A stretch of 63,984 nt of DNA, filler included, from Cladosporium halotolerans (Eukaryota): NCBI RefSeq assembly GCF_011745625.1. It is 5 parts of 5 records of this genome, joined end to end, with 100 filler letters (N's around TTAATTAATTAA, not from the genome) between each part and the next. Parts side by side here need not be neighbours in the genome. Positions count along the whole stretch, not along the records: positions 1 to 15,668 come from NW_027191559.1; 4 more parts are not named here. One strand, written 5' to 3'. The notes beneath the pieces are model-generated. The model saw only the letters and a list, made by a program, of their open reading frames with translations. It ran no database searches and was not told the DNA's origin. The stretch's first letter is position 1; each line of letters begins with the position of its first letter. The translations under genes and the position numbers were made by a program. Shown piece by piece: positions 1 to 13,581 of this stretch.

Positions 1-214
1 AGCGGTGCCAAGATGCAGGCGTCCAATACGCAGACCGGGACACGGTTCAAGCCGTCTCCTCCGATCGATCTGATCCTTCAGTTGCCAGGGAGTCGCGCTA
101 CGATACATCACCAAGCAGTCTGCACTGCATCTCTACCACATTAATATTTGCGAGTTCTCAAACATTCACGCTAGAAGCTTTGTCTATATCAAATCAAATT
201 TAGTATGCGTCGCG

Positions 215-859
215 ATGGCTAGGGAACAACGAACACTAAGGCCCTTAGCGCCTAAAATCACGACTACTCACACGTTGGATCCTGTCTTTCGGACGATCGA
301 CGCCAATTATAACGGCCTCTAAGCGCTGTCGCCGCCGATACTGCGGGTACGGAGAAGTTAGGTTAAAGTTACGTATATAGCTTATTAGAGGGGAAAAGCA
401 AAGGTAAGTTATACCTAGAAAAAACAAGAAGGCTCTAGAAGGGCTCTAACGCTTTAGTAGTGCGATAGCCGGCGACCTTCTTACGAACGTTATATAAAGA
501 AGGGCGTCCTTTACGAGTACGATATTAAACCTAACTCGATACGTTTCGTATCTCTCTAGCGAAAAATCACCGCGCTCTAAGCGGAAGTAAATAAGTTATA
601 CGGACTCTTTCACTATATTCGCACTTACTCCGGCCGTTAGGCTAGGGAATTGTTTTAGGAGATACGGGCGTCGAAAAGCCCTATCGACGTAGTAAAGGTA
701 TCGAGGATTCTACGCGGGTTCTATAAATATACTAAAGGTGAGATAGTGGAAATCGGAACTTATTAGGAGATAAGTCGATATACCTTTTAAGAATGCCTAT
801 AATAGTCCGGATTGGTTTTAAGCCTAGAGATCTGCCTCTTATTTCTAGCCTTCGAATAA
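215..859 (+). pseudogene. RIP-mutated short Zn(II)2Cys6 transcription factor gene
   Basis: ATG215 reads MAREQRTLRPLAPK...VKVTYIAY*RGKAK, then a GTAAGT..TAG intron, then CDSRRPSYERYIKKGVLYEYD. Reversing RIP changes (TAT/TAC to TGT/TGC, TAG to CAG) restores a CxxC-x6-C-x6-CxxC-x6-C cluster followed by a coiled coil. TpA is strongly enriched. Confidence 0.8.
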
Positions 860-909
860 AAACGTATATAGCTATCGTATAGCGGTTTAGTATTCTAGTA
901 CTATATAGG

Positions 910-1448
910 TAGACGCTAATACCGAATAGATTCGTCTTAGAAATAGGATATTATACTAAGTTATCGCTAGTGGTCTCGATACTTTATTAGCTTATAAAAT
1001 GTTTAGAACCGCTAAGACGCGACTATACTACGGTCGTGCGGGCGGTAAGCCCGCTATAACCCGCGGAGCTACCCGAGCGACTAAAAAATAGCTATAATCG
1101 CGATACCGGAGTATCTTCGCGTCTAGCCCTAGTTAGCGGGCCCTAAGACTAATCCTATAGAACGACTAGTCTAGCGCTTATTTATAAGCCGCAACCTCCG
1201 TTAATAATCCCTAACGACATGTATTTAGATATATAACGTTCTTCTTACCGTAGCGTATCTAGTATATCTCTATCTATCTTTATTCGGGCTACCTATCGCT
1301 TCTATAAAGGCTCGAAAGCTAAAGCGCCGAACGATAACGGCGACGATTTAGATAATAAAACGACTATCTACGCGATCGGTGCCCTAAAACCTAATTAGGT
1401 ACGTAGGTAAACGATAGGAGAATAGTAAGAGATAGGTAATTAATTAAG
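910..1448 (-). mobile_element. RIP relic (copy A) of the 5' region and accessory ORF of the pogo-like element at 4076-8443
   Basis: Colinear with about 7815-8350. For example gccctagttagcgggccctaagactaatcctatag (~1126) matches gccctagtcagcgggcctgtaggctgatcctggag (8039), with many C>T/G>A differences. Confidence 0.85.
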
Positions 1449-1450
1449 TA

Positions 1451-1614
1451 ACGTCTATCTATATATAGCGGGAATCTTCTAATATTCGCTCTATATCCGT
1501 TATCTACGCTATATCTTATTAATAACTTATCTTTTGCTATTCTCCTGTCGTTTACCTATAGGCTTAACCGCGTACCGAAGCACCGACCGCGTAGATAGCC
1601 GTTCTATTATCTAG
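1451..1614 (+). mobile_element. RIP relic (copy B): 5' terminus of the same pogo-like family inserted head-to-head into copy A
   Basis: TA(1449-1450)+ACGTCTATCTATATATAGCGGGAATC is a RIP form of the TIR TA+ACGTCCATCCACCTGTGCCGGGAATC at 8445-8418. Positions 1515-1614 are an inverted copy of 1348-1448. Confidence 0.8.
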
Positions 1615-2088
1615 GATATAGTCTAGTAGAGGTAAGTACGCCTACCCTCTATCCGTAAGTTTAAATGTTGTCTATGCTCCTACCAAATTTGGCTTGGCAG
1701 TAAGACTATCCAGCTTCTCAGCTATCTCTTTAGCTTTCATCTCTAATAAAAGCCTAAGTATAATAATAGTATACCATATTTAAAGAGATATCTATTAGCT
1801 ACTCCCTATTATAATTTGAAGTAATTCAAAGTAATACTAAGAGAGTTATAAATTCATCAAGTAGAGATCACGATCGACATAATAAAGTTGGTCACCTCCG
1901 CGGAGCCGGCGGGAGCTCCCGCGACCTTCAAACTTGCGGATGAAGGGTGGGCGTCGCGGCGATTGCGGTCCGGACCGAAAATTTCCGGTCTCAAAATCTG
2001 AGATTGCGACCGCGTTTGTTTGACGTCCTCGCATCCTTCTCTTTGTCCCGGATTGCTATTCGCAAAGCTTGATGCCCTGGTAAACAAC

Positions 2089-2506
2089 ATGAGCTTCATA
2101 GGGCTCTTATTCTGTACTGATTGCGGAAATCTGCTCCCGCGAGCAAATAGACAACAGATGCCGCACATCATATGCGATGTCTGCGCAAAGTCAAATAGCA
2201 GTATGCATGCCTTTGATATGCAGTATGAATTGCGCTGAACGTTTCGCAGACCAGTGGCCCGACGAACAAACTACGGTATCGCGACCCGAAGCATTTCCTT
2301 CATCATTGCGACGCAAACTCTTGTCGAATACGATCGAAATCTCACAGGATGTTGCCAACTCCCAACAGACTGCGAATGAAGAATGTCCTAGATGTCACAA
2401 TCCGCAGCTGCGATTCAGCGAGGCTCAACTGCGTAGCGCCGATGAGGGATCAACAATATTTTACACGTGCCCCAAATGCGATTACAAATTCAACACCAAC
2501 AATTAG
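2089..2506 (+). CDS. RPA12: RNA polymerase I subunit A12.2 (RPA12)-like protein, two zinc ribbons, one intron (2201-2249)
   Basis: N-terminal LFCTDCGNLL...CDVC. After the GTATGC..CAG intron comes the C-terminal TFIIS-type ribbon CPRC...QLRSADEGSTIFYTCPKC. Confidence 0.92.
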
Positions 2507-4933
2507 AACGGCACAAGAACGCCAGTCAGTCATGGGAATGCGGGACAAGGCACAGCGTACATCTGCCCTGATCTTGGAATCCATTTTTTTGGTTCTACAG
2601 ACATCTGAGGATTGCACTTGAGACTGGAGCCTAAGCGAGAGCAGCTGCGGTTCTTCGCAAGGGCCGCACTCAATGCCGCGCTCCGAAGCAGGCGCGCAAG
2701 AGGCAGAATGGCCTTGGAGGAACAGGCAGAGGAGTATCGTCCTGAACGCAGAGGTTGTATGTTACTTGCGGATTAGCGAGCAGGAGAACACGAAAAGCAG
2801 CATACGTGGTCAACTCCACTGGTACTCTGCCTGTAAAGCCTTCTGCGCACTTCAGGCATGTAGCTAAGATCAGAATTTCCATCACGCAAAAGCTGCCATC
2901 TTCGAAGTGTATCAACACATCTTCTTCATTTGTTCTGGCAGCTCCTGTAAATGGTTCGCGATGGGCGACTGAGTCGCGAAAGCAGGCCAGAAGCGCCCCG
3001 GACGTTCTTGGGGCGGGCATAGTTACTAATTTAGTGACAACATGGGTGGGCGCTGTTTCAGGTGCAGCGCTTAAACAATGGAGCGGCGCCCCCAGCTACC
3101 CTGTGTTGATCAAGGCAGGTAAGGGCAAAGAGTAGCACATTGTTCTGGCTTCTTGGAAGCTAATCAGAATGTTTTATGGCTTGCATGGACAGCGTTTCAG
3201 CCCCGTCGCTTAACGCCTGCGGCGGCGCAGGCAGCATGCCTTCCTGAAACATCCGATTGCGAGGTGAGCAGCTTTGACAGTATATGAGCTACTGTATTCT
3301 TCTCACCTCTCATTCATTCTCTGTTCCCACTCAAACACAGCGATTGAACTACGCAGCCCAAAGATCAAAGCAGTCTGATCCATTCGACTATTACCGGCAA
3401 CCCACTTCACGTGAGGATTCCATGAGCACAATTCTTATCAAGCTGATCTAAGAATAGAGACAGCATGTGCGGCTTCGAAACCTTCCACTATCTTGGATGC
3501 GGCCACGACAGACCAATGGCATGGAAGCATTGTCCAGCTTCTGGAACCACTGGCAGACATACCCATCTTGGATTCACAACCAACGTGGCAGGCAAATGCC
3601 CTGATTGCGGGAAGGCTCAGAAGAAATGATGTGAAAATGCATATTTAGGATTGACTAGCTGGCTAGCCAGTCTCAGAATTGTGAGTGTGGAAATGCAAGC
3701 AGACCGGAGTTCACTCGCTGACACATCAACACAGCGGGTACTGTCTTGTGATGGACTGGTCGAATATGGCCTTTCTCAAACGTAAATATTATGCTGGCTT
3801 GCTTTTATTTCTCTCGGCTACCACAATATGTATCATCCAACAAACCCTTTCTATCCACCGTCCCATCCTTTATAGAACTGTCTGCCAGCTTGAAGCTGGC
3901 CTCGCGAAAAAGGTCATGAAGGCCCAGCAAGCTTGCTCCGCCTGCCCCGCGCGGCTAGTAAGGTCGACATGTCATAAAATGAGAAAAGCATCAAAAGCTT
4001 ACAGTCGTTCCAAAGTCTCTTCGGGAGTCGCAGGACACCCTGTGTGACAGATATCTGGCACAAGTTCCATGTGTAACGCCCATCTCTGTCCTGGGACACC
4101 CTGCGTGACGGGACACTTCTCCCATGATTTGCTCTGTATCCTTTTTCCGCGTCGTGCTTAACTTGTAATCTAACAATATTCCTTGCGTTTCTCCGCACAC
4201 AGACGAAGATTGAGATGCTTGCGATTCGCCACACGCAGGATGCCATCCTGACGCACTGGATACCGTATGCAGCTACTCCTTTTGATTCGACGGCCGGCTC
4301 ACCGGTCGATGCAAGGTGATGCAGCGTCGCTTTAGCATATCAACGCGCAGGTGAACGGCGAATGAGGGTCCGCCTAGGCGCATTACCCCACATCTGAAGC
4401 TGCCCGTCATGCTCAAGATGCAGCTTTTGGTCCTCAAAGAACCGTCGCGGGATGTCAATGCCTTCATGTGTTGCTTTTCAAGTTCACTGACTATGGCTCA
4501 TGTCCTAAGCGCCGATTTCACGTACAGTGGCAGCTTGGAATGGCACCGCTATTCACCAAAGATCGCAACATGCGAAGGGCAAATCATGTGTGATGTCATG
4601 TGGGTTGCACACAGCCTTGCAGTCTCGGAGGCAAACGGCGGTTCTGCAACGAATTTCCCGAAATCTGCACGAGGGCAATCTTTCTTGCGTGTTCGCTTGA
4701 TGTACTTCTTGCATAGCGCCAAAGAAGCACATATCAGGACTTCGCTTGCGCAGTCAGAGCTCATCATAGGACGACGATCAAGTCACATGTGCGGGCAAGG
4801 ACGCAACAGCTTCAACAAAAAGCGCAGACTGGAAGATATAAAGGATTAGCACCTTCGCTTCCGTTGCAGTATGGCTACGAATCGCAATATGAGTATTCTG
4901 GTATCGACATTGGGTGCCCATTGAGACTTTGAA

Positions 4934-5802
4934 ATGGAGATTGTGACGCTAGTAACACCCTCCGGGGAGAGGTGTTGCTTGCCCTGGGAAAGATGCATAT
5001 CCTGGCAGGTAAGTAGGTATTCGGTCAAATGGGTTCGGAGACGATTGTTAAAAGCATTCACAAGGTCGTTGAACCATTGATTGCAGCCTACATACGAAAT
5101 CAAGGACATCGGCAACAGTTCAAGGACGGAAAGTTCATGCTGACCAATTCCGCTGGCCTTACCATTTCCCCTTTGGTGTGGCCAGCAGGCGTTCTTCCTG
5201 GATCAGAGGCGGTTTTACGCATCACATCCGATCTCGATGACAATTTCAATGGGGCACACTCCCCCAGCCAGTCGATTCAAGACCATGTTGACCATAGCTG
5301 CAGTCGCATAGCAGTAAGGGTTGATGAAGCTCTGTCACGACTCGAAGAGGTAGATCGACACATCAGTGCATTCCACCGAACAGTCAATGAAAGCATCGAA
5401 GCGCGGCACCAGGACCAGATTGCCCACGAGACACAGACAGAAAGGTTCAGAGAAACTCGGTGTGATGCTCGGGAGCGTGAGCGCGAACTCGAAAGAGATC
5501 GGAGAGACAGAGAACGGGAGTCGGAAAGGGACAGGCGACAGCGCGAAAGAGAGAATACGCAAGACATCACACAAGGTGGGAGGCCGCTTATAACAAGCGC
5601 GCAAGATCCGGCGCAATTTCTCAGCGCAAATACAACCATGGAGACTGATCTGAGGGCACTGACAGACCAGGTCAGAGAGATAGGCGCAACATTGCAGCGC
5701 GCATGTAGAGAACGCGTCCCGTTCGGCCAAAGTGTTATCGTCTGCAGGAGACGGAGACTGAGATGCTTGCGGTACTTCGCGTGCAGAACGCCGCTTCAAT
5801 AG
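4934..5802 (+). pseudogene. Fungal ubiquitin-like-domain protein with an RE-rich coiled coil, probably frameshifted in exon 1
   Basis: VTLVTPSGERCCLPW..(CISWQ after a 1-nt shift), a GTAAGT intron, then IHKVVEPLI...GKFMLTNSAGLTISPLVWPAGVLPGSEAVLRI. This resembles the fungal ubiquitin-like domain pattern (..FPF..C.TWQ...G.YDL....G.II.P.VW..VI.P). An ERERDRR tract follows. Confidence 0.55.
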
Positions 5803-5975
5803 TTGCCGTGGGCGGCACTATAACATCTTGCAGATTCAAGTATCTTGAAGTTGATATAATGAAACTCATGAATACTTGTCTCGCTAATCTGCCGAAATGC
5901 CGATGCGCTCACGCTCCAGCCCGTGACCAAACCAGATCCTCAAATGGCAAGTCGCTTGAGACAGTCAGAAATCTT

Positions 5976-7718
5976 TCAGTACATACGCGCGACTGGCGCT
6001 GCACCAGGACAAGGAGGAATGGGCGCTGCTGTGTGCTGTGCTTGAGCCATCAAGAGCGCGTCATCGGCCGATTCCGCAGCAGTTAGAAGCGGTGACTGGA
6101 AAGTCGCATCCAGAACGGCTTCCTCTTCACTCTTGCGCTTCCGTCGCTGCTTTTTCGCAGCTTTCCTGGCATCTTTCTCAGCTCGCTTCGCTCTCGCCTC
6201 AAAAAGATCCTCGTAACTCATCACTTTCGCTTTGCCAAGGACCAGCGACTTCGTCGCACGGCGGACTTTGGCTTCGTCATTTCTCTTGAGCAGGGATTTG
6301 ATACGTTCTTGCTGAAGAACGCCCCTAGCAATGGACGTTTGAGCTCCTTTAGTGAGCTTCTGAAGGTGTCGCTGAATGCTCTGCTTTCCTATCTCCTCCA
6401 GCGTGTGTGCATCCCTCTCCAGAATGAAGTCACGCAGCGCTAGGAAAGCCTCTGCCGTCACTGGCGTTTCGGGTGTGATGGGCGCTGCAGGGACTCTGGG
6501 CGTTTCGTCTTGACAAGTGGCAGAACTTGACGTCGTTTCCCCACCGGCTTCCGGGGCCGGCAACTCGGCGAGAGGCTTCACCAAGTCCTTCATCACTCGT
6601 TCTGGGTTCAGTGGGTAAAGCCCGCCTTTGCTCCAGCCTGCGAGGATATTCTTCCTCGTAAACGCTTTCTTTCTTGCATAGCTGTATAGAGATGTAAAGT
6701 GTTGCTTCCCAATGGCGTTAACACCGCCCCGTTCCAGGCGCTCAACGGCATCGCGATACGCTGCTTTCAAGGGGGCGAAGACAGCAATGTCACACGGCTG
6801 CAACTTATGAGATGTGTGGGAAGGTAGCCGGCGTAGACGGATGTCACTGGCGAAGCAGTGCTCTAGGATCTCGAGCGTCTCGTGCGTGCCGAAACCATCA
6901 CAGATCAGCAACCGTTTCTTACCCCTTGCTCGTTCCTTGGTCTGCGGGTCGAACACCTTTTTAAGCCACTCGAGGCTTATTTTGGAGTCAGTGTAGCCAG
7001 ACTTGGAACACGCATAATGCCATCCTGGTGTGGGGTGCGTCGTCCAGTTGCCTCTATGGGTGGCCGCTGGCCAAATGACCATAGGGTTCAGAAATCTACC
7101 ATCGGCACTGATGCACTCGATCGCAGTAACCATCGTTCGCTCTACTCGTGCACCTCGATAATCCCGTTGGTCATCCTTTCCTACGAGCACCTTAACAGAA
7201 CCGAGCATAGAGAGCATGACTCCGGTCTCGTCCATGTTGTACACATTCTCTGCCACGATTGCGTCGTCACCCAGTACTTTACTAATCACGTCAAACCAGT
7301 GTTCTACCTTCGGGTATATGTTCTTGTCATGGCGCTTCCAATTTAGTGGTTTCGCTCGTCAGGTTTGTAGCTCTGGATGCCTTCTCTCGAAAGCTTTGGT
7401 CCAATTCTTGTTTGGTGCTTGGGCTGGTCTGTCCACTTCCAGTCAATGGCGGGTCACACTGAAAGCTATTGATGGTATGAACTTGTTCCGTACAGGTGTT
7501 CCCAGGTCGGACATCTCCAGGATAAACTCAATCACGGCCTTCTCCTCGAATGGCGTGAGGTATTGCTGGGCCTGGGCTTTTGCTTCGATGGATCTGCGGC
7601 CACGCGCACGAGCGTGGAGGGTAGAAAGTGGAACATCCCGGTGATCTGCAATAGCACGCAACGATCTTGGTACGCCTGCGGGAACACCTTGCGCCAAAGC
7701 CAGACTGGCTCTGTCCAT
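5976..7718 (-). pseudogene. pogo/Fot1-type DDE_1 transposase (~580 codons) with two premature TGA stops
   Basis: ORFs 7443-7718 (HTH, VPLSTLHARARGRRS) and 5976-7289 are in one frame, separated by two TGA codons that are probably CGA>TGA. Catalytic motifs are NMDETG, ICDGFGTH and LQPCDIAVF. Confidence 0.95.
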
Positions 7719-7814
7719 CCTCGCGATGTGGCCACGCCGTCGAGGTACAGCGGTACACTAGCAGAACCGGTGGGGAGCTCGGGGGAGGACCGGCTGGGGA
7801 AGCGGCCGACCCTG

Positions 7815-8297
7815 TCAAATGCCAAGCATTGCAAGGCTCTGGCGCGCGATCTTCCATGCAGTTTCCATGTGAGCTTGCTTCGCCTCCTGCGGAACACTGA
7901 CCGCCGTTTCGATATCAAAACCTTCGAGACAGGATTCCCCTCCACACGGGCGGACGGTAAGCCCGCGTTGCCGCGCGGTTCTACCCGAGCAAATCGCGAA
8001 GAGCGAAAGCCGCGACACCGGAGCGCATTCGCGCCTAGCCCTAGTCAGCGGGCCTGTAGGCTGATCCTGGAGAAAGACCAGCCTGGCGCTTATTTCTAAG
8101 CCACAGCCTTCATCAACGGTCCCTAGCGGGATGCGTTTGGATCTACAATCTTCTTCTGACCGCAGCACATTCAGCGCACCTGCTTTCAACTCCACTTGGA
8201 TTACATGTCGCCTTTCCGCGAGCTCAAAAGCTGGAGCGTCAAACCATGACGGCGACAATTTGGACGAAGGAACAACTATCCACGCGATCGGTGCTCT
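7815..8297 (-). CDS. Small accessory ORF (~150-160 aa, unknown function) between the 5' TIR and the transposase; start codon unclear
   Basis: Open frame APIAWIVVPSSKLSPSWFDAPAFEL...GCGLEISARLVFL...AMLGI*. The same sequence is recognisable in the RIP copy at 910-1400. Confidence 0.55.
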   Translation of the reverse strand, partial: RAPIAWIVVPSSKLSPSWFDAPAFELAERRHVIQVELKAGALNVLRSEEDCRSKRIPLGTVDEGCGLEISARLVFLQDQPTGPLTRARRECAPVSRLSLFAICSGRTARQRGLTVRPCGGESCLEGFDIETAVSVPQEAKQAHMETAWKIARQSLAMLGI

Positions 8298-9319
8298 GAC
8301 ACATGGTCAGCCCGATTGGTAAATGACAGAAGAATAGTAAGAAATGGCTTATTTACCAAAATGGATGTGGACAATGGATACAAGGCGAAGATTAGAAAAG
8401 GTGTCCCGGCACAGGTGGATTCCCGGCACAGGTGGATGGACGTTACTCCCGTTGAAAAGGCTCGACCGCAGTACGAGTAAGTGTACTGGCCTCTGGCAGA
8501 TGACGAGACGAGTAAAACGACATGAAGCGATGGATAGACACTGTTTGCAACACAGACACACCGTTGAACGATATGATTCAGAGAAGATGGACTTGCTCTC
8601 ACGTTTTGCGCACGGGTAACTTTCGTTGATTAGACGGATCAGATATCGTAAAATCGGCTTTCCCTTTGTAGGCAAATTCTACTTTCCCTGGAGTTTCCAT
8701 GCACTGGCTCGTGTCTGGAAGTATCACTTCCAAAAGTCGTCCATGTTTACTTGGGGAGCTGGTGCTCTCGGCATCCCTTGCTCTAATTTTTTGCGGTCTT
8801 TGATGACTTGCTCGCCCAAGATCCACGCATTCCCGCGTTAAATGCATGATCTCCGTTGGACGAAATATCTGTTGCACCAAGGCCAATGATCTTATTGAAA
8901 ACAAGGGGACCATCGTATCGGAAGTCCTCTGGAAATCGAGTGATGCATCGATCTCCGCGCTTGATGCAGAAAAGCGGTGCAACTTCACGCGATTCCACGG
9001 CTACATTCTTCGGTAGGAGCAAATAGTACCGTAAGCGGTGCCAGCGACCAACCTCTGACCTCAGATTTACACTAAATCTGTTGCATTCACAGCCACACCG
9101 ACCCTCTGTCGTAGTCGATAAGGCGTCGGTTCATTTGGCCTTGGACAACGCCTTACGAAGAGTTGCATAGGTTAACATTCCTCCCCGGCGACTCAATGGC
9201 GAGGCTCGCCGCCACCAGAGTCTCCTGCCTCAATCGCAATCTGACAATCCCCTTTCGCCAGCTAGCCACAAGCCAAAAGATGGTGTGCACAGTAGCTTCT
9301 ATTTAGTCGAGTATCATTT

Positions 9320-11375
9320 TCAGGGCACTGCGTCAAACAAGATGCGCTGAAGATTTTCCAACGTCTCATGGTTTCGACGAACTGTCGGAGATATGGTCGC
9401 ATGTCTCTCCAGGAAATTGACAGTGCGATCAAGGACATGTCGGAGGCGCTCCGCGTTCACAAGCGGTCTTAGGTACCAGTCGCGGAATACCGCACACAGT
9501 AGTAACATGATGGTGAAGTTACTGGTTTCAATGTCAGAAAACAAGCTGTTGGAAGCGGAGCGGGATCACTCACATGTAGGCAGTGCTTTGTAGATCCGCC
9601 ACGATCAACCGATGTGGCACTTGGTCAAATGCCAGGAGGGTTTGGAAAGCGGCTTCGATACAGGATCGGCGACCATCCATAAATCGTTCCTCTTTCATTG
9701 CCGCAATGGCTTCATAGACAAACACCTCGGCCCGCAAGTTCGTGATGACACAAATTTCTACAGCGGCTTGCTTGACTGTGTAGCCGATATCATAGTATGG
9801 CCGGATGTTCAGAGCGAAGCTTAAGAAGGGCCTATACATAAAGTACCGGACCCTCCAGTATTTGGCACGCAGCCGCGCATGGAGCATGTCGCAGGGAGGA
9901 CCATCCGAGTCATTCCATTGCAGATTCTTGGGCAGATGGTCTCTCCACTCCTGAAGAACAGTTCCGCAATTCATCAGCTCAAATCTTAAAACGTGAAATG
10001 TGGAATGGCGCTCTTGCCTGTATAGTCGATCATACAGGTCCGCAAGATGCTTCTCCAAGGAAATTTGCGCAGTCAAGAAGAGGAGCAGCTCTTCGGGAGG
10101 TCCTCTTGTAAATTGGACTTGCGACGTTGCTTGACAACTTTCTGTTCCAGACCAGTCTTGCGGCAAAGATAAGAAAGTGGAGAGCTCCGCAAGATGACTT
10201 GTGCGAGTATCCTCATGGGGCGGAGCTTCGTTCTCCAGCTGCAAACACGACCAAGCGGCGATCAGTGTCAACGACTCACTAAAGGTCCGTGGAAGTTCAC
10301 ATGGCGGAGTAGCGTGGATACTCGTGCCATAGATATCGTTCGCGCCGAACACTTTTCGGAGAGTCTGGCCCGCTATCGCAAACCATGATTTGCTCTCTTT
10401 GACGCGGTCAAAGTGGGCAGCAAAGAGACCGGCCAGCAGATACACCTGAGCACACGTCAGGGTTTTGTCTTGAGACGCTACCAAAAGAGATCTCATGGCT
10501 TGCGTGTACCACTTCGCACCCGGAAGAGAACAAGGATTGCCAAACTCGCGGCTTACATCTCTTTGCTGGCATGACGAAGACTTCGTTTGTTCGCATACCT
10601 CGCCAAGTGCTAGTACCAGAAGTATCAACACATTGTCCAGGTCAACTCTTTGGGAAGATGCGAATACCTGCAAGGCATTTCGACGCTTCGAGTGTCCGTC
10701 CGGGGCCTCATGGGCACCAGATCTGTGGGCGCTCACTCTCGCAACGTTGCTCATGATATAGTCATCAAGAAGCTCTCGGACGTTGCGTATGTCGAGAAAA
10801 GGGTAAATGCTATGGATCTGCTCCACATAATTGGCAAAGTAGCTGTTGATGGTGGTGGCTGCAAGTTCCGGGCTTTCGCGGCGCGAGTTTAGCCCAGGCA
10901 GCGACATGGTCGGTTCTGCGTATATCCGAAGGCTCTGCTGAGAGTGACTGCTAATCGTCGTCTGGCTTCCAGAGATATGTTCCATAAGATTGGCCACGCT
11001 TGGCCAAAACAAGATCGATTTTGGTGTTACCGTGCTGCGGGAGCTTGGCCCGGTGTCGGGTTCAAGCTGTTCAGACCGTAGCTGCTCCATCTGCAGGGCT
11101 ATTCCATCGCCTTCATGCTGCGCGGAGATCTTTCGACGCCTTGGTAGAGCATCCAGAGGCCGTTGGGATCGGGCACAGGCGACATACTCGCAAGTAACGC
11201 CACGGCTGCTGCATCCAGCACAGGTTGGTCTTCTGTCACAACGTTTCTTCAGCCTACGGCATTCCTCGCAAGCCCCCCCTGACCTTTTTGGCCGTCTCAC
11301 TTGTCCAGAGATGGCAAGTCGCTGCGACTTCAGGTCTCGACGATTTCCCAGCTTGCTGGAATAAGAGATGGTCAT
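9320..11375 (-). CDS. Zn(II)2Cys6 transcription factor, FTF1/FTF2-like family, with one 3' intron (~9550-9575)
   Basis: CEECRRLKKRCDRRPTCAGCSSRGVTC cluster. Family-type motifs are LILLVLALGEVC, AWSCLQLE, LTAQISLEKHL and DMLHARLRAKYW...YRPF. A last exon frame lies at 9320-9544. Confidence 0.85.
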
Positions 11376-12443
11376 GTCAAAAGAGCGACACTTGTTGTTC
11401 GGGGCACAGAAAAGTGAACAATTGCAAAAATTTCTCGTCAGAGAATAGACATTCTCGCTAGTTATTGTCAGCGCCGTTGGCGTGAAGATTTCAATGCGCG
11501 CACAGCATGCTGAAGTATGCCGGCGCTGACCTGGACCTCTTGCACACTTCTGCCTGATGCTGCCCTGAAGATTCAGCCGCAAAAGGCGCCAAGTGCATTG
11601 GCACACATTTCAGGACTCGTCAATATCCTGGTTCGCCCCAAAGGATGGACTTGACTGCCAAAGCCCTAGCCTCCAGATTGTATTGGGTAGCGTCGGCTGA
11701 AGATTAGAGCAGCATGTGAAGCGCGACCTGCACCTAGAAGCCAGGGGCTGTCATCGTCATCACTGACGCCACTAAATCAGCACTCAGGGTTGGCTGTGTC
11801 ACCCCGTTGCCTGGATGGCGTTCACACCTCCAATTCGCGAAGTCGGACGACGAAGACGTACCGACCGGGTTCCACAGCTGAAGCAAGCGCCACCTGCCAG
11901 GGATCGGGGTCATCCAAGCACGAACTCTAAGACAACATGAGATGGCACGTGCGAGCGGGCTCCCCATGGTCTCTTCGGCTGAACACTGAAGTTGAAGCGT
12001 GAACTACGGGCGAGGCGAGAAGGCCGACGTCCCGTTACTGGACCGTGCTTCTCCGAAGTGAAGAGACCGGATTTTGCTTGGAAAACCGTGCCTTCCGGAT
12101 CCTCCTCATGATCTTAAAATCCAGAAGATGGCCATCGCTGGCACGGTCGCGTGCTCACTGTTTGTTGCAGCAGATGCTGAGGAGATGCGAGTTTCGGTCT
12201 ACATGAATAGCATAGCCATCAAAGTGGAGTTTCATTGCCGCTTGATAATAAGACCCCATCGATACTCTACATCATCGGCGCCTTCACTACATGCGTGAGC
12301 ATCTATCACCCCTGACAGCCTTCGTTAAGGAGCAAGTCGTCTCAACCCTTCTTGCAGAGATACAGTTCCGGTCGGGTCACGCGATGCACAAAATTGTAGA
12401 GAACGCCAATTGAATGATCAGACTCCTCAGTCTCCGTGGCTGG

Positions 12444-13581
12444 TCAAGACCTCGGAGATGTTGTACATTTTTCGATTTCTTGGACGATCAGTTCTATGTC
12501 GGGCGTGTCAGTTTACCTGGGTACCAAGGTCTCCCAATACAGACTTACTTCTCACTTTATCTATGCTCAGACAAATGGGTTCACCGAAGTTCAGATAATC
12601 ACGAGGTATACGATGCGCTTCAGGTTCGTCGGCAGAATCGTGGTACACTCCGAGGTATGGATGTTCCAGGGCCATCCCTACACTGATGCGCTCGTCAGGA
12701 TTGAAGGACAACAGTCGGTCCAATATGTCGAGTGCTTGGTCGGAAGCACGCGGGAACAATCCTTTCCAAGACGTTTTCGACTTAAGCGGTAGTCGTTGAA
12801 TGTGCCTTTGCGCACTTTTGTCGAGCTTGTGAAAGTCCTTCGAATAAGGCGTCCCAATTACATCGAAAATTTGACCAAGCTGCTCCTCATGCCTGGTTCC
12901 AGAGAAGAGCCGTTTGCGGCCCAACATCTCGGCAAATATGCATCCAACGGCCCACATATCTACAGCCGTGGTGTATCTCTCCGGTGGAAGCATGATATCA
13001 GGTGCCCGATAGCAGAGGGAGCCGACTGGTCCAGTCGAAGTGCCCTTGGCAACATCGCTGTTCGTTGAAGGGCGCGCAGCACCAAAGCCGGACACCTTGA
13101 GGTCGCAATTGGTGTTGATCAGCAGGTTTGAAGGGTTGAGATTGCAGTGAACGATGCCAGCAGAATGTATTGCTTTCAACGCACGCAGGATTTGATAGAG
13201 GAAATACTGGCAGTGGTCGTCGGACAGTTCTTGATTGCCGTCCATTATGAGCGACTGCATGTCCGTTTCCATCAACTCTTGGACAATGTAGACCTCTTGA
13301 CAGGACTCAGAGTTGCGCGGTCGAGGGACGTCTAAGACCGGAATTATGTTTTCGTGGTGAAAGTGACGGAGCAGCTTGATCACGCACAAGACGCGCAGAC
13401 CGCATTCCAGATGTTCGAACGGGAGTGATCTGAGGATGGCGACTTGCTGCTGGGATTCTTTGTGTGATGCAGCAAAGACAGTGTGATAAACGCCTTCTGC
13501 CAGCCGGTCACAAAGGTCGTATTCAGCGCCGGGGTGGAAACCGCTGTTGGAGGACCAGGATTCACACTCGCCGCGAGGCAT
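12444..13581 (-). CDS. Fus3/Kss1/Pmk1-derived MAP kinase-like pseudokinase
   Basis: Colinear with Fus3-type MAPKs (EVYIVQELMETDM, LSDDHCQYFLYQILRALKAIHSA, HPYL..YHD..DEP). A GTAAGT intron near 12548 leads to a last exon LIVQEIEK..*. Catalytic motifs are substituted. Confidence 0.9.

What the first reader, a model, noticed from the sequence alone, without database searches (positions are those of the whole stretch)
215..1448. RIP relic suggests the same element family carried a Zn2Cys6 transcription factor as cargo
Seen: a heavily RIP-mutated Zn2Cys6 gene (+) converges on the RIP copy of the accessory ORF (-), in the position the transposase occupies in the 4076-8443 copy. Established: RIP targets duplicated DNA. 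Inference: the TF was itself multicopy, amplified inside a non-autonomous derivative, which would mean a transposon disperses transcription factors.
Basis: partly seen in the sequence, partly recalled or inferred. Interest (0 to 1): 0.7.

Follow-up and report, generated by a model that had tools for sequence, protein, structure and literature searches.

The report
Fungal transposon carrying a transcription factor
A small jumping element in this fungal genome carries a short, spliced zinc-cluster regulator gene to several new sites; the copy flagged here has been killed by the fungus's repeat-mutation defence, but its sister copies are intact and look functional.

Summary
Largely confirmed. Window 215-766 is a two-exon Zn2Cys6 gene wrecked by RIP: 171 C>T/G>A changes, 150 at CpA, against a near-identical unmutated copy. 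The gene is multicopy. The complete unit, G000:C685:785-3462, is a 2.7-kb transposase-less pogo/Fot1-type element with about 530-bp inverted arms around the gene. An empty site on C7 shows one TA where C685 has two, and five different left flanks exist. Three unmutated copies encode an intact 164-aa protein under purifying selection (dN/dS 0.07-0.22 over zinc cluster and coiled coil). Its 57-nt intron is spliced out in RNA contigs of 3 of 4 runs laid. The protein belongs to a short subfamily, shared with other fungi, related to a conserved full-length host factor on C489 but without its regulatory part. Corrections: the 'accessory ORF' is non-coding arm sequence, and 4076-8443 is not a clean unit. 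Other elements with the same arms hold different short Zn2Cys6 genes. Gene capture by fungal transposons is known; I found no report of this variant. What the protein does is untested.

The parts
1..214 (+). Element interior upstream of the TF (likely promoter/5' UTR); the element continues about 1.1 kb beyond the contig start to a left arm and TIR in the sister copies
   Evidence: Aligns with C685:1909-2144 and C655; RNA contigs reach into it
215..403 (+). Zn2Cys6 gene exon 1 (63 codons, first two cysteines), RIP-damaged from about 310 on
404..460 (+). 57-nt phase-0 intron inside the zinc cluster
   Evidence: Exactly these 57 nt are skipped in RNA contigs of 3 of 4 runs laid on the C655 copy
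461..766 (+). Exon 2: rest of the zinc cluster, coiled coil and short helical tail; no middle-homology or activation region
   Evidence: Pfam Zn_clus; intact in C655, C685, C80; profile of exon 2 best matches GAL4 residues 14-71, weakly (E 0.0014)
767..1006 (+). 3' region of the TF gene inside the element
   Evidence: Shared by all full copies; RNA contigs of 2 runs extend to about 60 bases before the arm
1007..1448 (.).
   Evidence: 69% to 7947-8353; complete with TIR on C685 and C116; no coding signal
1449..1613 (+). TA (1449-1450) followed by an inverted element end (TIR plus about 160 bases of arm) inserted into the arm; forms an imperfect fold-back with 1349-1448
   Evidence: the same junction is on C655 and C80
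350..1665 (.). Dense RIP tract
   Evidence: Site-by-site comparison with C655
2089..2506 (+). RPA12/TFIIS-like gene; possibly second cargo of a larger composite unit (inferred)
   Evidence: Zn_ribbon_TFIIS; the same junction is on C80 and C655, and a separate paralogue is on C1
5976..7718 (-). pogo/Fot1-type transposase of the same family, two premature stops; a 95% identical copy with an open 593-codon frame is on C246:191402-193180
   Evidence: DDE_1 E 7e-32
7818..8445 (-). 5' arm of the transposase element with TIR ending at 8443 and TA at 8444-8445
   Evidence: empty sites for its flank on C245, C629, C87

Best explanation
The window holds a RIP-killed, end-damaged copy of a non-autonomous pogo/Fot1-type DNA transposon whose cargo is a short Zn2Cys6 gene. 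Shown: the unit has TIRs, inserts at TA, occurs at five or more sites, and its gene is spliced and under purifying selection in the unmutated copies. Inferred origin: a short Zn2Cys6 gene that already existed in the lineage was enclosed by two inverted 5' ends of the pogo family (the two arms are only 73% alike), giving a composite that a family transposase such as the intact one on C246 moves in trans. Inferred function: the 164-aa protein keeps the DNA-binding cluster and dimer helix but lacks the regulatory region of its full-length host relative (C489), so it most likely acts as a competitor or dimer partner that modulates that factor's targets, with selection acting at host level (about 35-40% likely; untested).
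For: 7 matches incl. self for 200-1030, 76-90% for the others. Complete unit C685:785-3462 with TA on both sides, arms 73% alike, no transposase hit on C685. Empty site on C7: both flanks 93-94% identical and joined by a single TA; a second empty site on C33 for the C25 left end. Five different left flanks: C655, C685, C246, C64, C25. TIR pattern: 13 matches, reversed control 0. Intact 164-aa frame in C655, C685, C80; C655 vs C685 codons 49-137: 8 synonymous of 61 sites, 2 non-synonymous of 206, dN/dS 0.07, Fisher p 1.5e-4; C685 vs C246 codons 1-137 dN/dS 0.33, p 3e-4. Exon 2 differs less (13/306) than left arm (67/606) or spacer (62/705) between C655 and C685. Intron spliced in RNA contigs of 3 of 4 runs, 3 studies; one run has two spliced variants. 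Host relative C489: 44% in exon 2, same N-terminal motif and intron place, Fungal_trans hit (below cut-off) downstream, single match. Tree: short forms group at 91/90 and join C489-type long forms at 93/98. Heterodimer model of the two exon-2 parts: weak support, score 0.52, best of 3 controls 0.00, runs agree in at least 70% of contacts, partner pLDDT at least 63; the mark was reached by 51 of 78 solved complexes and 2 of 108 mismatched pairs, but at 0.60 or under by only 5 of the 78 and by all 4 mismatches that passed (of 180); zinc-cluster dimers are solved, so the pass may come from likeness.
Against: No DNA-binding or phenotype data. Several copies are damaged: window (RIP), C246 (frameshift near codon 140 and no right arm), C116 (partial, behind a poly-A tail), C25/C80 (split by a nested element). 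Codons 1-48 are weakly constrained (dN/dS mostly 0.35-0.88). The RNA comes from mixed samples of other studies, as contigs, so it cannot be tied to a given copy or strand. The short-clade support (91/90) is below the tool's star mark and the tree has no true outgroup. The closest short paralogue in the genome (C114, 51%) has no arms and a damaged exon 1, so no direct parent of the cargo was found. In other fungi carriage is not proven: of 48 metagenome loci, 2 have a pogo transposase and 1 has the arm, none with both ends around the gene. The assembly is fragmented, so some copies may be joined wrongly.
Confidence: 0.8

Rival explanations
1. Passive passenger: the transposon spreads the gene, but the purifying signal comes from one selected host copy (or predates capture) and the dispersed copies do nothing.
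For: Several copies are broken; short homologues in other fungi mostly lie without transposon marks; copies exchange sequence (C655 shares left-part variants with C246/C607 and its right junction with C80), which could spread a selected sequence.
Against: The synonymous excess is between copies at different insertion sites (C655 vs C685, C685 vs C246), i.e. accumulated after or during amplification; two variants are spliced in one RNA run.
Confidence: 0.3
2. The cargo protein serves the transposon: it binds the arm or the transposase promoter and regulates transposition or shields the element.
For: Three different short Zn2Cys6 genes lie inside or right next to arms of this one family (window type; C246:189444-189968; C11/C33); the arm is kept at about 70% over 400-600 bases without coding, also in a metagenome locus (L131).
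Against: The three cargo genes are only 26-32% alike, so they should recognise different sites; CGG pairs in the arm were listed without a control and show nothing; the window's own transposase element lacks such a gene between 4076 and 8443.
Confidence: 0.12
3. The unit that moved at this locus is larger: about 9.5 kb from the C655 left TIR through TF, RPA12-like gene and transposase to the TIR at 8443; the TF is then cargo of a transposase-bearing composite as well. This adds to, and does not replace, the best explanation.
For: C655's left flank and C19's right flank (C19 arm 97% to 7996-8445) join at one TA in C109 and C26; the empty sites of the 8446 flank (C245, C629, C87) do not join the 4073 flank; a second version of the middle exists at 96-97% (C80, C244).
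Against: No contig spans it; the left partner flank of the window copy was not found next to a TIR, nor the right end of the C25 copy; C19 differs from the window by 13/450 while C655 differs by only 12 non-RIP changes in 2 kb; the target is itself a repeat.
Confidence: 0.45
4. RIP leaked from the neighbouring repeat into a single-copy host gene.
For: The tract is centred on the arm and its fold-back, and spares 1-340 although that part is also repeated.
Against: The gene is multicopy with TIRs and a proven TA duplication; mutation density in the gene (83% of sites) is near that in the arm (90%) with a sharp edge. Local triggering by the fold-back remains possible but does not change the multicopy finding.
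Confidence: 0.03

Closest known systems
Transduplicated histone H3 in hAT elements of Pseudocercospora fijiensis and Pyrenophora tritici-repentis (PMC6710886; abstract and first part of Discussion read)
   Same: [quoted passage not shown]
   Different: There a hAT element carries a transcript-derived housekeeping gene, all copies RIP-inactivated in P. fijiensis. Here a pogo-type element carries an intron-bearing regulator gene with its upstream region, and most copies are unmutated, spliced and under purifying selection.
Pack-TIRs of animals, incl. multicopy Ssk-FB4 and TcMariner-type cases (PMC8277862; passages); Pack-MULEs of plants as cited there
   Same: Non-transposon sequence between TIR ends, multicopy through recurrent transposition, transcribed.
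   Different: The paper covers animals (the word fungi does not occur in its main text); most cases are single-copy gap fillings. Here both ends are diverged copies of the same 5' end, suggesting a composite, and the cargo is a whole short gene.
Fot1 subfamily of pogo elements (PMC7325037; passages)
   Same: TA target duplication, short TIRs, HTH + DDE_1 transposase in the partner elements, 35 residues between second and third Asp (counted; that this marks Fot1 is recalled).
   Different: 400-600-base conserved non-coding arms, no transposase in the TF unit, and cargo genes.
Accessory-chromosome transcription factors of Fusarium oxysporum, e.g. FTF1/aTF1 (PMC5140021, passages; PMC10054582, search listing only)
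   Same: Multicopy accessory Zn2Cys6 genes with a single core relative, in repeat-rich regions.
   Different: No TIR-bounded carrier was described in the passages seen, and aTF1 acts as an activator; the cargo here lacks the regulatory region.
Starships (PMC9156397; passages) and Helitron gene capture (PMC4289320; search listing only)
   Same: Fungal mobile elements that disperse accessory genes.
   Different: Other mechanisms and sizes (about 110 kb on average for Starships); this unit is 2.7 kb and DDE-mobilised.
Canonical Zn2C6-MHD (CeGAL) factors (PMC10141177; passages), GAL4 DNA-binding and dimer region (PDB 3coq)
   Same: Six-cysteine cluster followed by a coiled coil.
   Different: Ends 80-100 residues after the cluster starts its second exon, without middle-homology domain; the short form is real (shared stop region in 21 of 48 metagenome loci; RNA runs through the stop).

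Membership tests
pogo/Fot1 (Tc1/mariner-type) non-autonomous element | TA target site duplication | tested here: met
   Empty site C7 has one TA where C685 has the element between two; C33 likewise for the C25 left end
pogo/Fot1 (Tc1/mariner-type) non-autonomous element | Terminal inverted repeats shared with a transposase-bearing element | tested here: met
   Same TIR on C685 (both ends), C246:188239/193867 and window 8443; 13 pattern matches, control 0. The window copy itself has lost its right TIR and its left end is off the contig.
pogo/Fot1 (Tc1/mariner-type) non-autonomous element | Partner transposase with HTH and DDE_1 (DD35D) domains | tested here: met
   DDE_1 E 7e-32; HTH_Tnp_Tc5 weak, below cut-off; open 593-codon frame on C246; spacing of 35 counted from the printed sequence
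pogo/Fot1 (Tc1/mariner-type) non-autonomous element | Mobilisation in trans by that transposase | not testable with these tools
   Inferred from shared TIRs
Pack-TIR / transduplication | Host-derived, non-transposon sequence between the termini | tested here: met
   Cargo is homologous to host gene C489 and to syntenic long orthologues in metagenome loci
Pack-TIR / transduplication | An identifiable parental locus with high identity to the cargo | tested here: not met
   Nearest arm-free relatives are 51% (C114) and 44% (C489) in exon 2 among 35 matches of 53 candidates; the capture is old or the parent is lost or unassembled
Zn2Cys6 transcription factor | Six cysteines in the binuclear-cluster spacing | tested here: met
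   All six in C655, C685, C80, C246, C64; 1 of 6 left in the window copy; Pfam PF00172 above cut-off
Zn2Cys6 transcription factor | Middle homology (Fungal_trans) and activation region of canonical members | tested here: not met
   Stop at codon 165; present in host relative C489, weak hit
Zn2Cys6 transcription factor | Sequence-specific DNA binding and effect on transcription | not testable with these tools
   Needs DAP-seq, gel shift or reporter assay
RIP-mutated repeat | C>T/G>A on both strands with CpA preference against an unmutated copy | tested here: met
   171 of 183 substitutions; 150 at CpA
Protein-coding accessory ORF in the arm | Start codon, open frame across copies, third-position excess | tested here: not met

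The most novel reading that the evidence does not exclude
Small pogo-type transposons in this fungal lineage act as recurrent carriers of DNA-binding-only Zn2Cys6 genes (three different ones at arms of one family here), and these are working competitors or dimer partners of conserved full-length host factors, so that transposition changes regulator dosage and feeds the expansion of zinc-cluster genes in ascomycetes.
Probability: 0.3. Interest if true: 0.82.

Novelty: new variant of a known kind. Interest (0 to 1): 0.62.

Why it matters
How Zn2Cys6 genes came to dominate ascomycete regulator sets is discussed as open, with no mention of transposons in that paper's main text (PMC5415576, passages). 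Here is a case with a proven target-site duplication in which a 2.7-kb DNA transposon disperses an intact, spliced zinc-cluster gene under selection, and a sister copy shows RIP ending its life. It offers a small, testable system for transposon-borne regulators and for the little-studied DNA-binding-only zinc-cluster proteins. The paired RIP and non-RIP copies also give a clean natural record of one RIP event with sharp edges.

Tried and rejected
Word-based protein search with exon 2 found no candidate; the full HMMER scan did (204 at E 0.001). Accessory ORF as a gene: rejected. 4076-8443 as a clean element: not supported, since empty sites of its right flank do not join its left flank. Search for the window copy's left end next to a TIR: 4 matches, none with a TIR (C381 covers only the far part and was not read). 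Search for the right end of the C25 copy: 7 matches, none showing it (L173 not examined). Transposon carriage in other fungi: suggestive only. L131 has the arm with TIR 5.2 kb upstream of a short homologue but no second arm; L117 has a transposase about 1 kb upstream with no TIR pair found; in L144 the transposase has its own TIRs that exclude the gene. Pfam scan of 74 ORFs (49 from 11 short-type loci, 22 from 5 long-type loci, 3 from C489; ORFs overlapping the TF and redundant loci left out) found no other transposon protein. RNA run X19 covers exon 2 only and says nothing on splicing; lack of RNA cover on arms is no evidence. CGG-pair listing had no control and is not used. Earlier findings: nothing by sequence or words; 8 of 16 same-genome notes shown, none on this element. 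Literature: nine searches listed no paper on a pogo/Tc1-mariner element carrying a Zn2Cys6 gene; PMC5751038, PMC10799480 and PMC13672802 (passages) did not describe it. The library holds open-access papers only and no supplements were read, so repeat libraries or supplementary tables may hold it.

Full report
Observation. The window begins at base 1 of contig G000:C12 of a 27.9-Mb assembly in 691 contigs. Bases 215-766 hold a two-exon Zn2Cys6 gene (intron 404-460) with 7 premature stops and 5 of 6 cysteines changed to tyrosine. Bases 1035-1441 match 7947-8353 at 69%, and 1349-1613 form an imperfect fold-back. Contig C655 holds the same 2 kb without the damage. The two differ by 87 C>T, 84 G>A and 12 other substitutions; 150 of 234 CpA/TpG sites are changed, against 21 of 781 other C contexts. 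This is RIP. The tract runs from about 350 to 1665: 65 of 78 sites in 341-1006, 53 of 59 in the arm, 26 of 37 in 1449-1720, 6 of 46 in 1-340 and 0 of 14 beyond 1720.

The gene is multicopy and mobile. A search with 200-1030 gave 7 places including the window. C685:785-3462 is a complete unit: TA, TIR, an arm of about 600 bases, 750 bases of spacer, the gene, an inverted arm of about 530 bases, TIR, TA; the arms are 73% alike and 71-73% like the window's 7837-8445. No transposase match lies on C685. Contig C7 carries both C685 flanks at 93-94% joined by a single TA, which proves insertion with target duplication. C33 is an empty site for the left end on C25. Left ends have five different flanks (C655, C685, C246, C64, C25). 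The window copy, C655 and C80 share a damaged right end, where an inverted element end sits at a TA inside the arm. The likely mobiliser is the family transposase: the window's copy has two stops, and a 95% identical copy on C246 has an open 593-codon frame and the same TIRs. Mobilisation in trans is inference.

The 'accessory ORF' is not a gene. It lacks a start, is broken in most arms, has no Pfam match, and shows no third-position excess over 8 arms (314/299/338; p 0.29), unlike TF exon 2 (106/98/162; p 5e-5) and the transposase (423/380/630). It is the conserved 5' subterminal region of the family. Because both ends of the TF unit are diverged versions of this same end, a composite origin (gene trapped between two inverted ends) is the simplest reading; this is inference.

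The cargo looks functional in sister copies. C655, C685 and C80 encode an intact 164-aa protein; C246 has a frameshift near codon 140; C64 is cut by the contig end. Over codons 49-137, dN/dS is 0.07 (C655-C685; Fisher p 1.5e-4), 0.14 and 0.22 among the three, 0.29-0.37 against C246, and 1.4 for the window copy against C655; codons 1-48 are weakly constrained. Of 24 runs listed I laid 4 RNA runs from 4 studies; contigs of 3 skip exactly the 57-nt intron, one run with two sequence variants, and the fourth covers exon 2 only. These are mixed samples kept as contigs, so they show splicing of this gene family, not of a named copy.

What the protein is. In the genome, exon 2 has 35 matches among 53 candidates; after the element copies come C114 (51%, short, no arms, damaged first exon) and C489 (44%, full-length, one match, same N-terminal motif and intron place, weak Fungal_trans hit). 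In the protein library the best hits are mostly short too (6 best: 102-158 aa; one named Cladosporium inversicolor). A metagenome scan gave 48 loci of 103 stretches: 21 short, 22 long, 2 broken, 2 cut by the contig end, 1 distant, with some redundancy. The five long-type loci scanned share conserved neighbours (dehydrogenase in 5, WD40 in 4). On a tree of 38 rows (24 of the 48 loci, 6 own, 8 library proteins; duplicates and broken ones left out), short forms group at 91/90 and join the C489-type forms at 93/98, midpoint-rooted. So the short form probably arose from the C489 lineage before this capture. It keeps cluster and coiled coil, like the GAL4 DNA-binding and dimer region (weak match), and lacks the region that canonical members carry (PMC10141177, passages). 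That such proteins can compete or poison dimers is my recalled knowledge; one search for it returned no paper. A heterodimer model of the two exon-2 parts gave weak support: 0.52 against a best control of 0.00, contacts agreeing in at least 70%, partner pLDDT at least 63; 51 of 78 solved complexes and 2 of 108 mismatches reach the mark, but at 0.60 or under only 5 of the 78 do, and all 4 passing mismatches of 180; likeness to solved dimers may explain it.

A family habit. The element at C246:188239-193867 has both arms, the intact transposase and a different short Zn2Cys6 gene (second copy on C274, 82%); C11 and C33 have a third one directly inside an arm, with the other end not found. Their insertion sites were not tested against empty sites, and the region is rich in short Zn2Cys6 genes that have no arms nearby (arms in 2 of the 24 loci that are not copies of this element, L067 and L081), so some of this may be chance enclosure. 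In metagenome loci, 2 of 48 have a pogo transposase and 1 of 48 has the arm, all three with short-type genes, none enclosing the gene between two ends. Nine short-type loci share a repeated 2-3-kb unit at 83-92% or are duplicates, without transposon marks.

Empty sites for the flank at 8446 do not join the flank at 4073, whereas C655's left flank and C19's right flank join at one TA in C109 and C26. This suggests a composite of about 9.5 kb with TF, RPA12-like gene and transposase; no contig spans it and two follow-up searches found no missing ends. Whether window and C655 are paralogues or alleles is open: RIP usually hits both copies in one nucleus (recalled), yet C655 is spared; the core gene C489 appears once, which argues against a diploid assembly.

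Comparison and verdict. Gene capture by fungal DNA transposons is known (hAT with histone H3, PMC6710886; Starships, PMC9156397), as are Pack-TIRs in animals (PMC8277862) and accessory TF expansions (PMC5140021). Nine searches of the open-access library listed no pogo-type carrier of a Zn2Cys6 gene; supplements were not read. It works like a multicopy Pack-TIR and meets the tests for a non-autonomous pogo element, but has no close parental locus. New variant of a known kind; carriage shown, function inferred; interest 0.62.

Noticed in passing
window 2089-2506; G000:C80:7710-8075; G000:C1:203591-203717: An RPA12/TFIIS-like gene sits right after the TF element, has a 97% copy on C80 and a separate diverged paralogue on C1; it may be a second cargo of a larger composite.
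   Followed up: partly
window 5017-5802: ORF with a weak ubiquitin-like (ULD_2) hit and an Arg/Glu-rich stretch, converging on the transposase; absent from the C246 sister element, which has a Zn2Cys6 gene there instead.
   Followed up: partly
window 4074-4125; G000:C246:188238-188315: Degenerate TIR-like end, 70-73% like the family TIR; also on C244. Not the partner of the 8443 end by target-site logic.
   Followed up: partly
window 1641-1947: AT-rich stretch of about 300 bases, bounded by a short inverted repeat (about 1641-1665 and 1929-1955), present in C655 but missing in C80; may be an older RIP relic.
   Followed up: no
G000:C25:1-4225, G000:C80:1-5675; L131:562-2077: A second pogo element with its own TIRs splits one TF element; it carries an ankyrin-repeat ORF (C25:461-1105). 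An ankyrin-carrying TIR element also sits inside the arm in metagenome locus L131, so cargo carriage may be common in these pogo elements.
   Followed up: partly
G000:C246:105600-110700: Three further short Zn2Cys6 genes flank the TF-element copy; similar clusters on C114, C638, C153 and C9.
   Followed up: no
G000:C246:189444-189968 (-), G000:C274: The cargo gene of the transposase-bearing element seems to have two introns within the zinc cluster with a very small exon between them; splicing not checked.
   Followed up: no
G000: 93 matches to the pogo transposase, many with long open frames and few with RIP-type stops, so RIP is rare in this lineage.
   Followed up: no
L104, L105, L108, L110, L112, L113, L116, L120, L142: A repeated 2-3-kb unit with a short Zn2Cys6 gene in metagenome contigs, five of them from one assembly, without recognised transposon proteins; carrier unknown.
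   Followed up: partly
window 12511-13581 (-), 9573-11609 (-): A MAP-kinase-like ORF (judged by eye from the translation) and a full-length Zn2Cys6 gene lie on the same contig downstream of the transposase.
   Followed up: no
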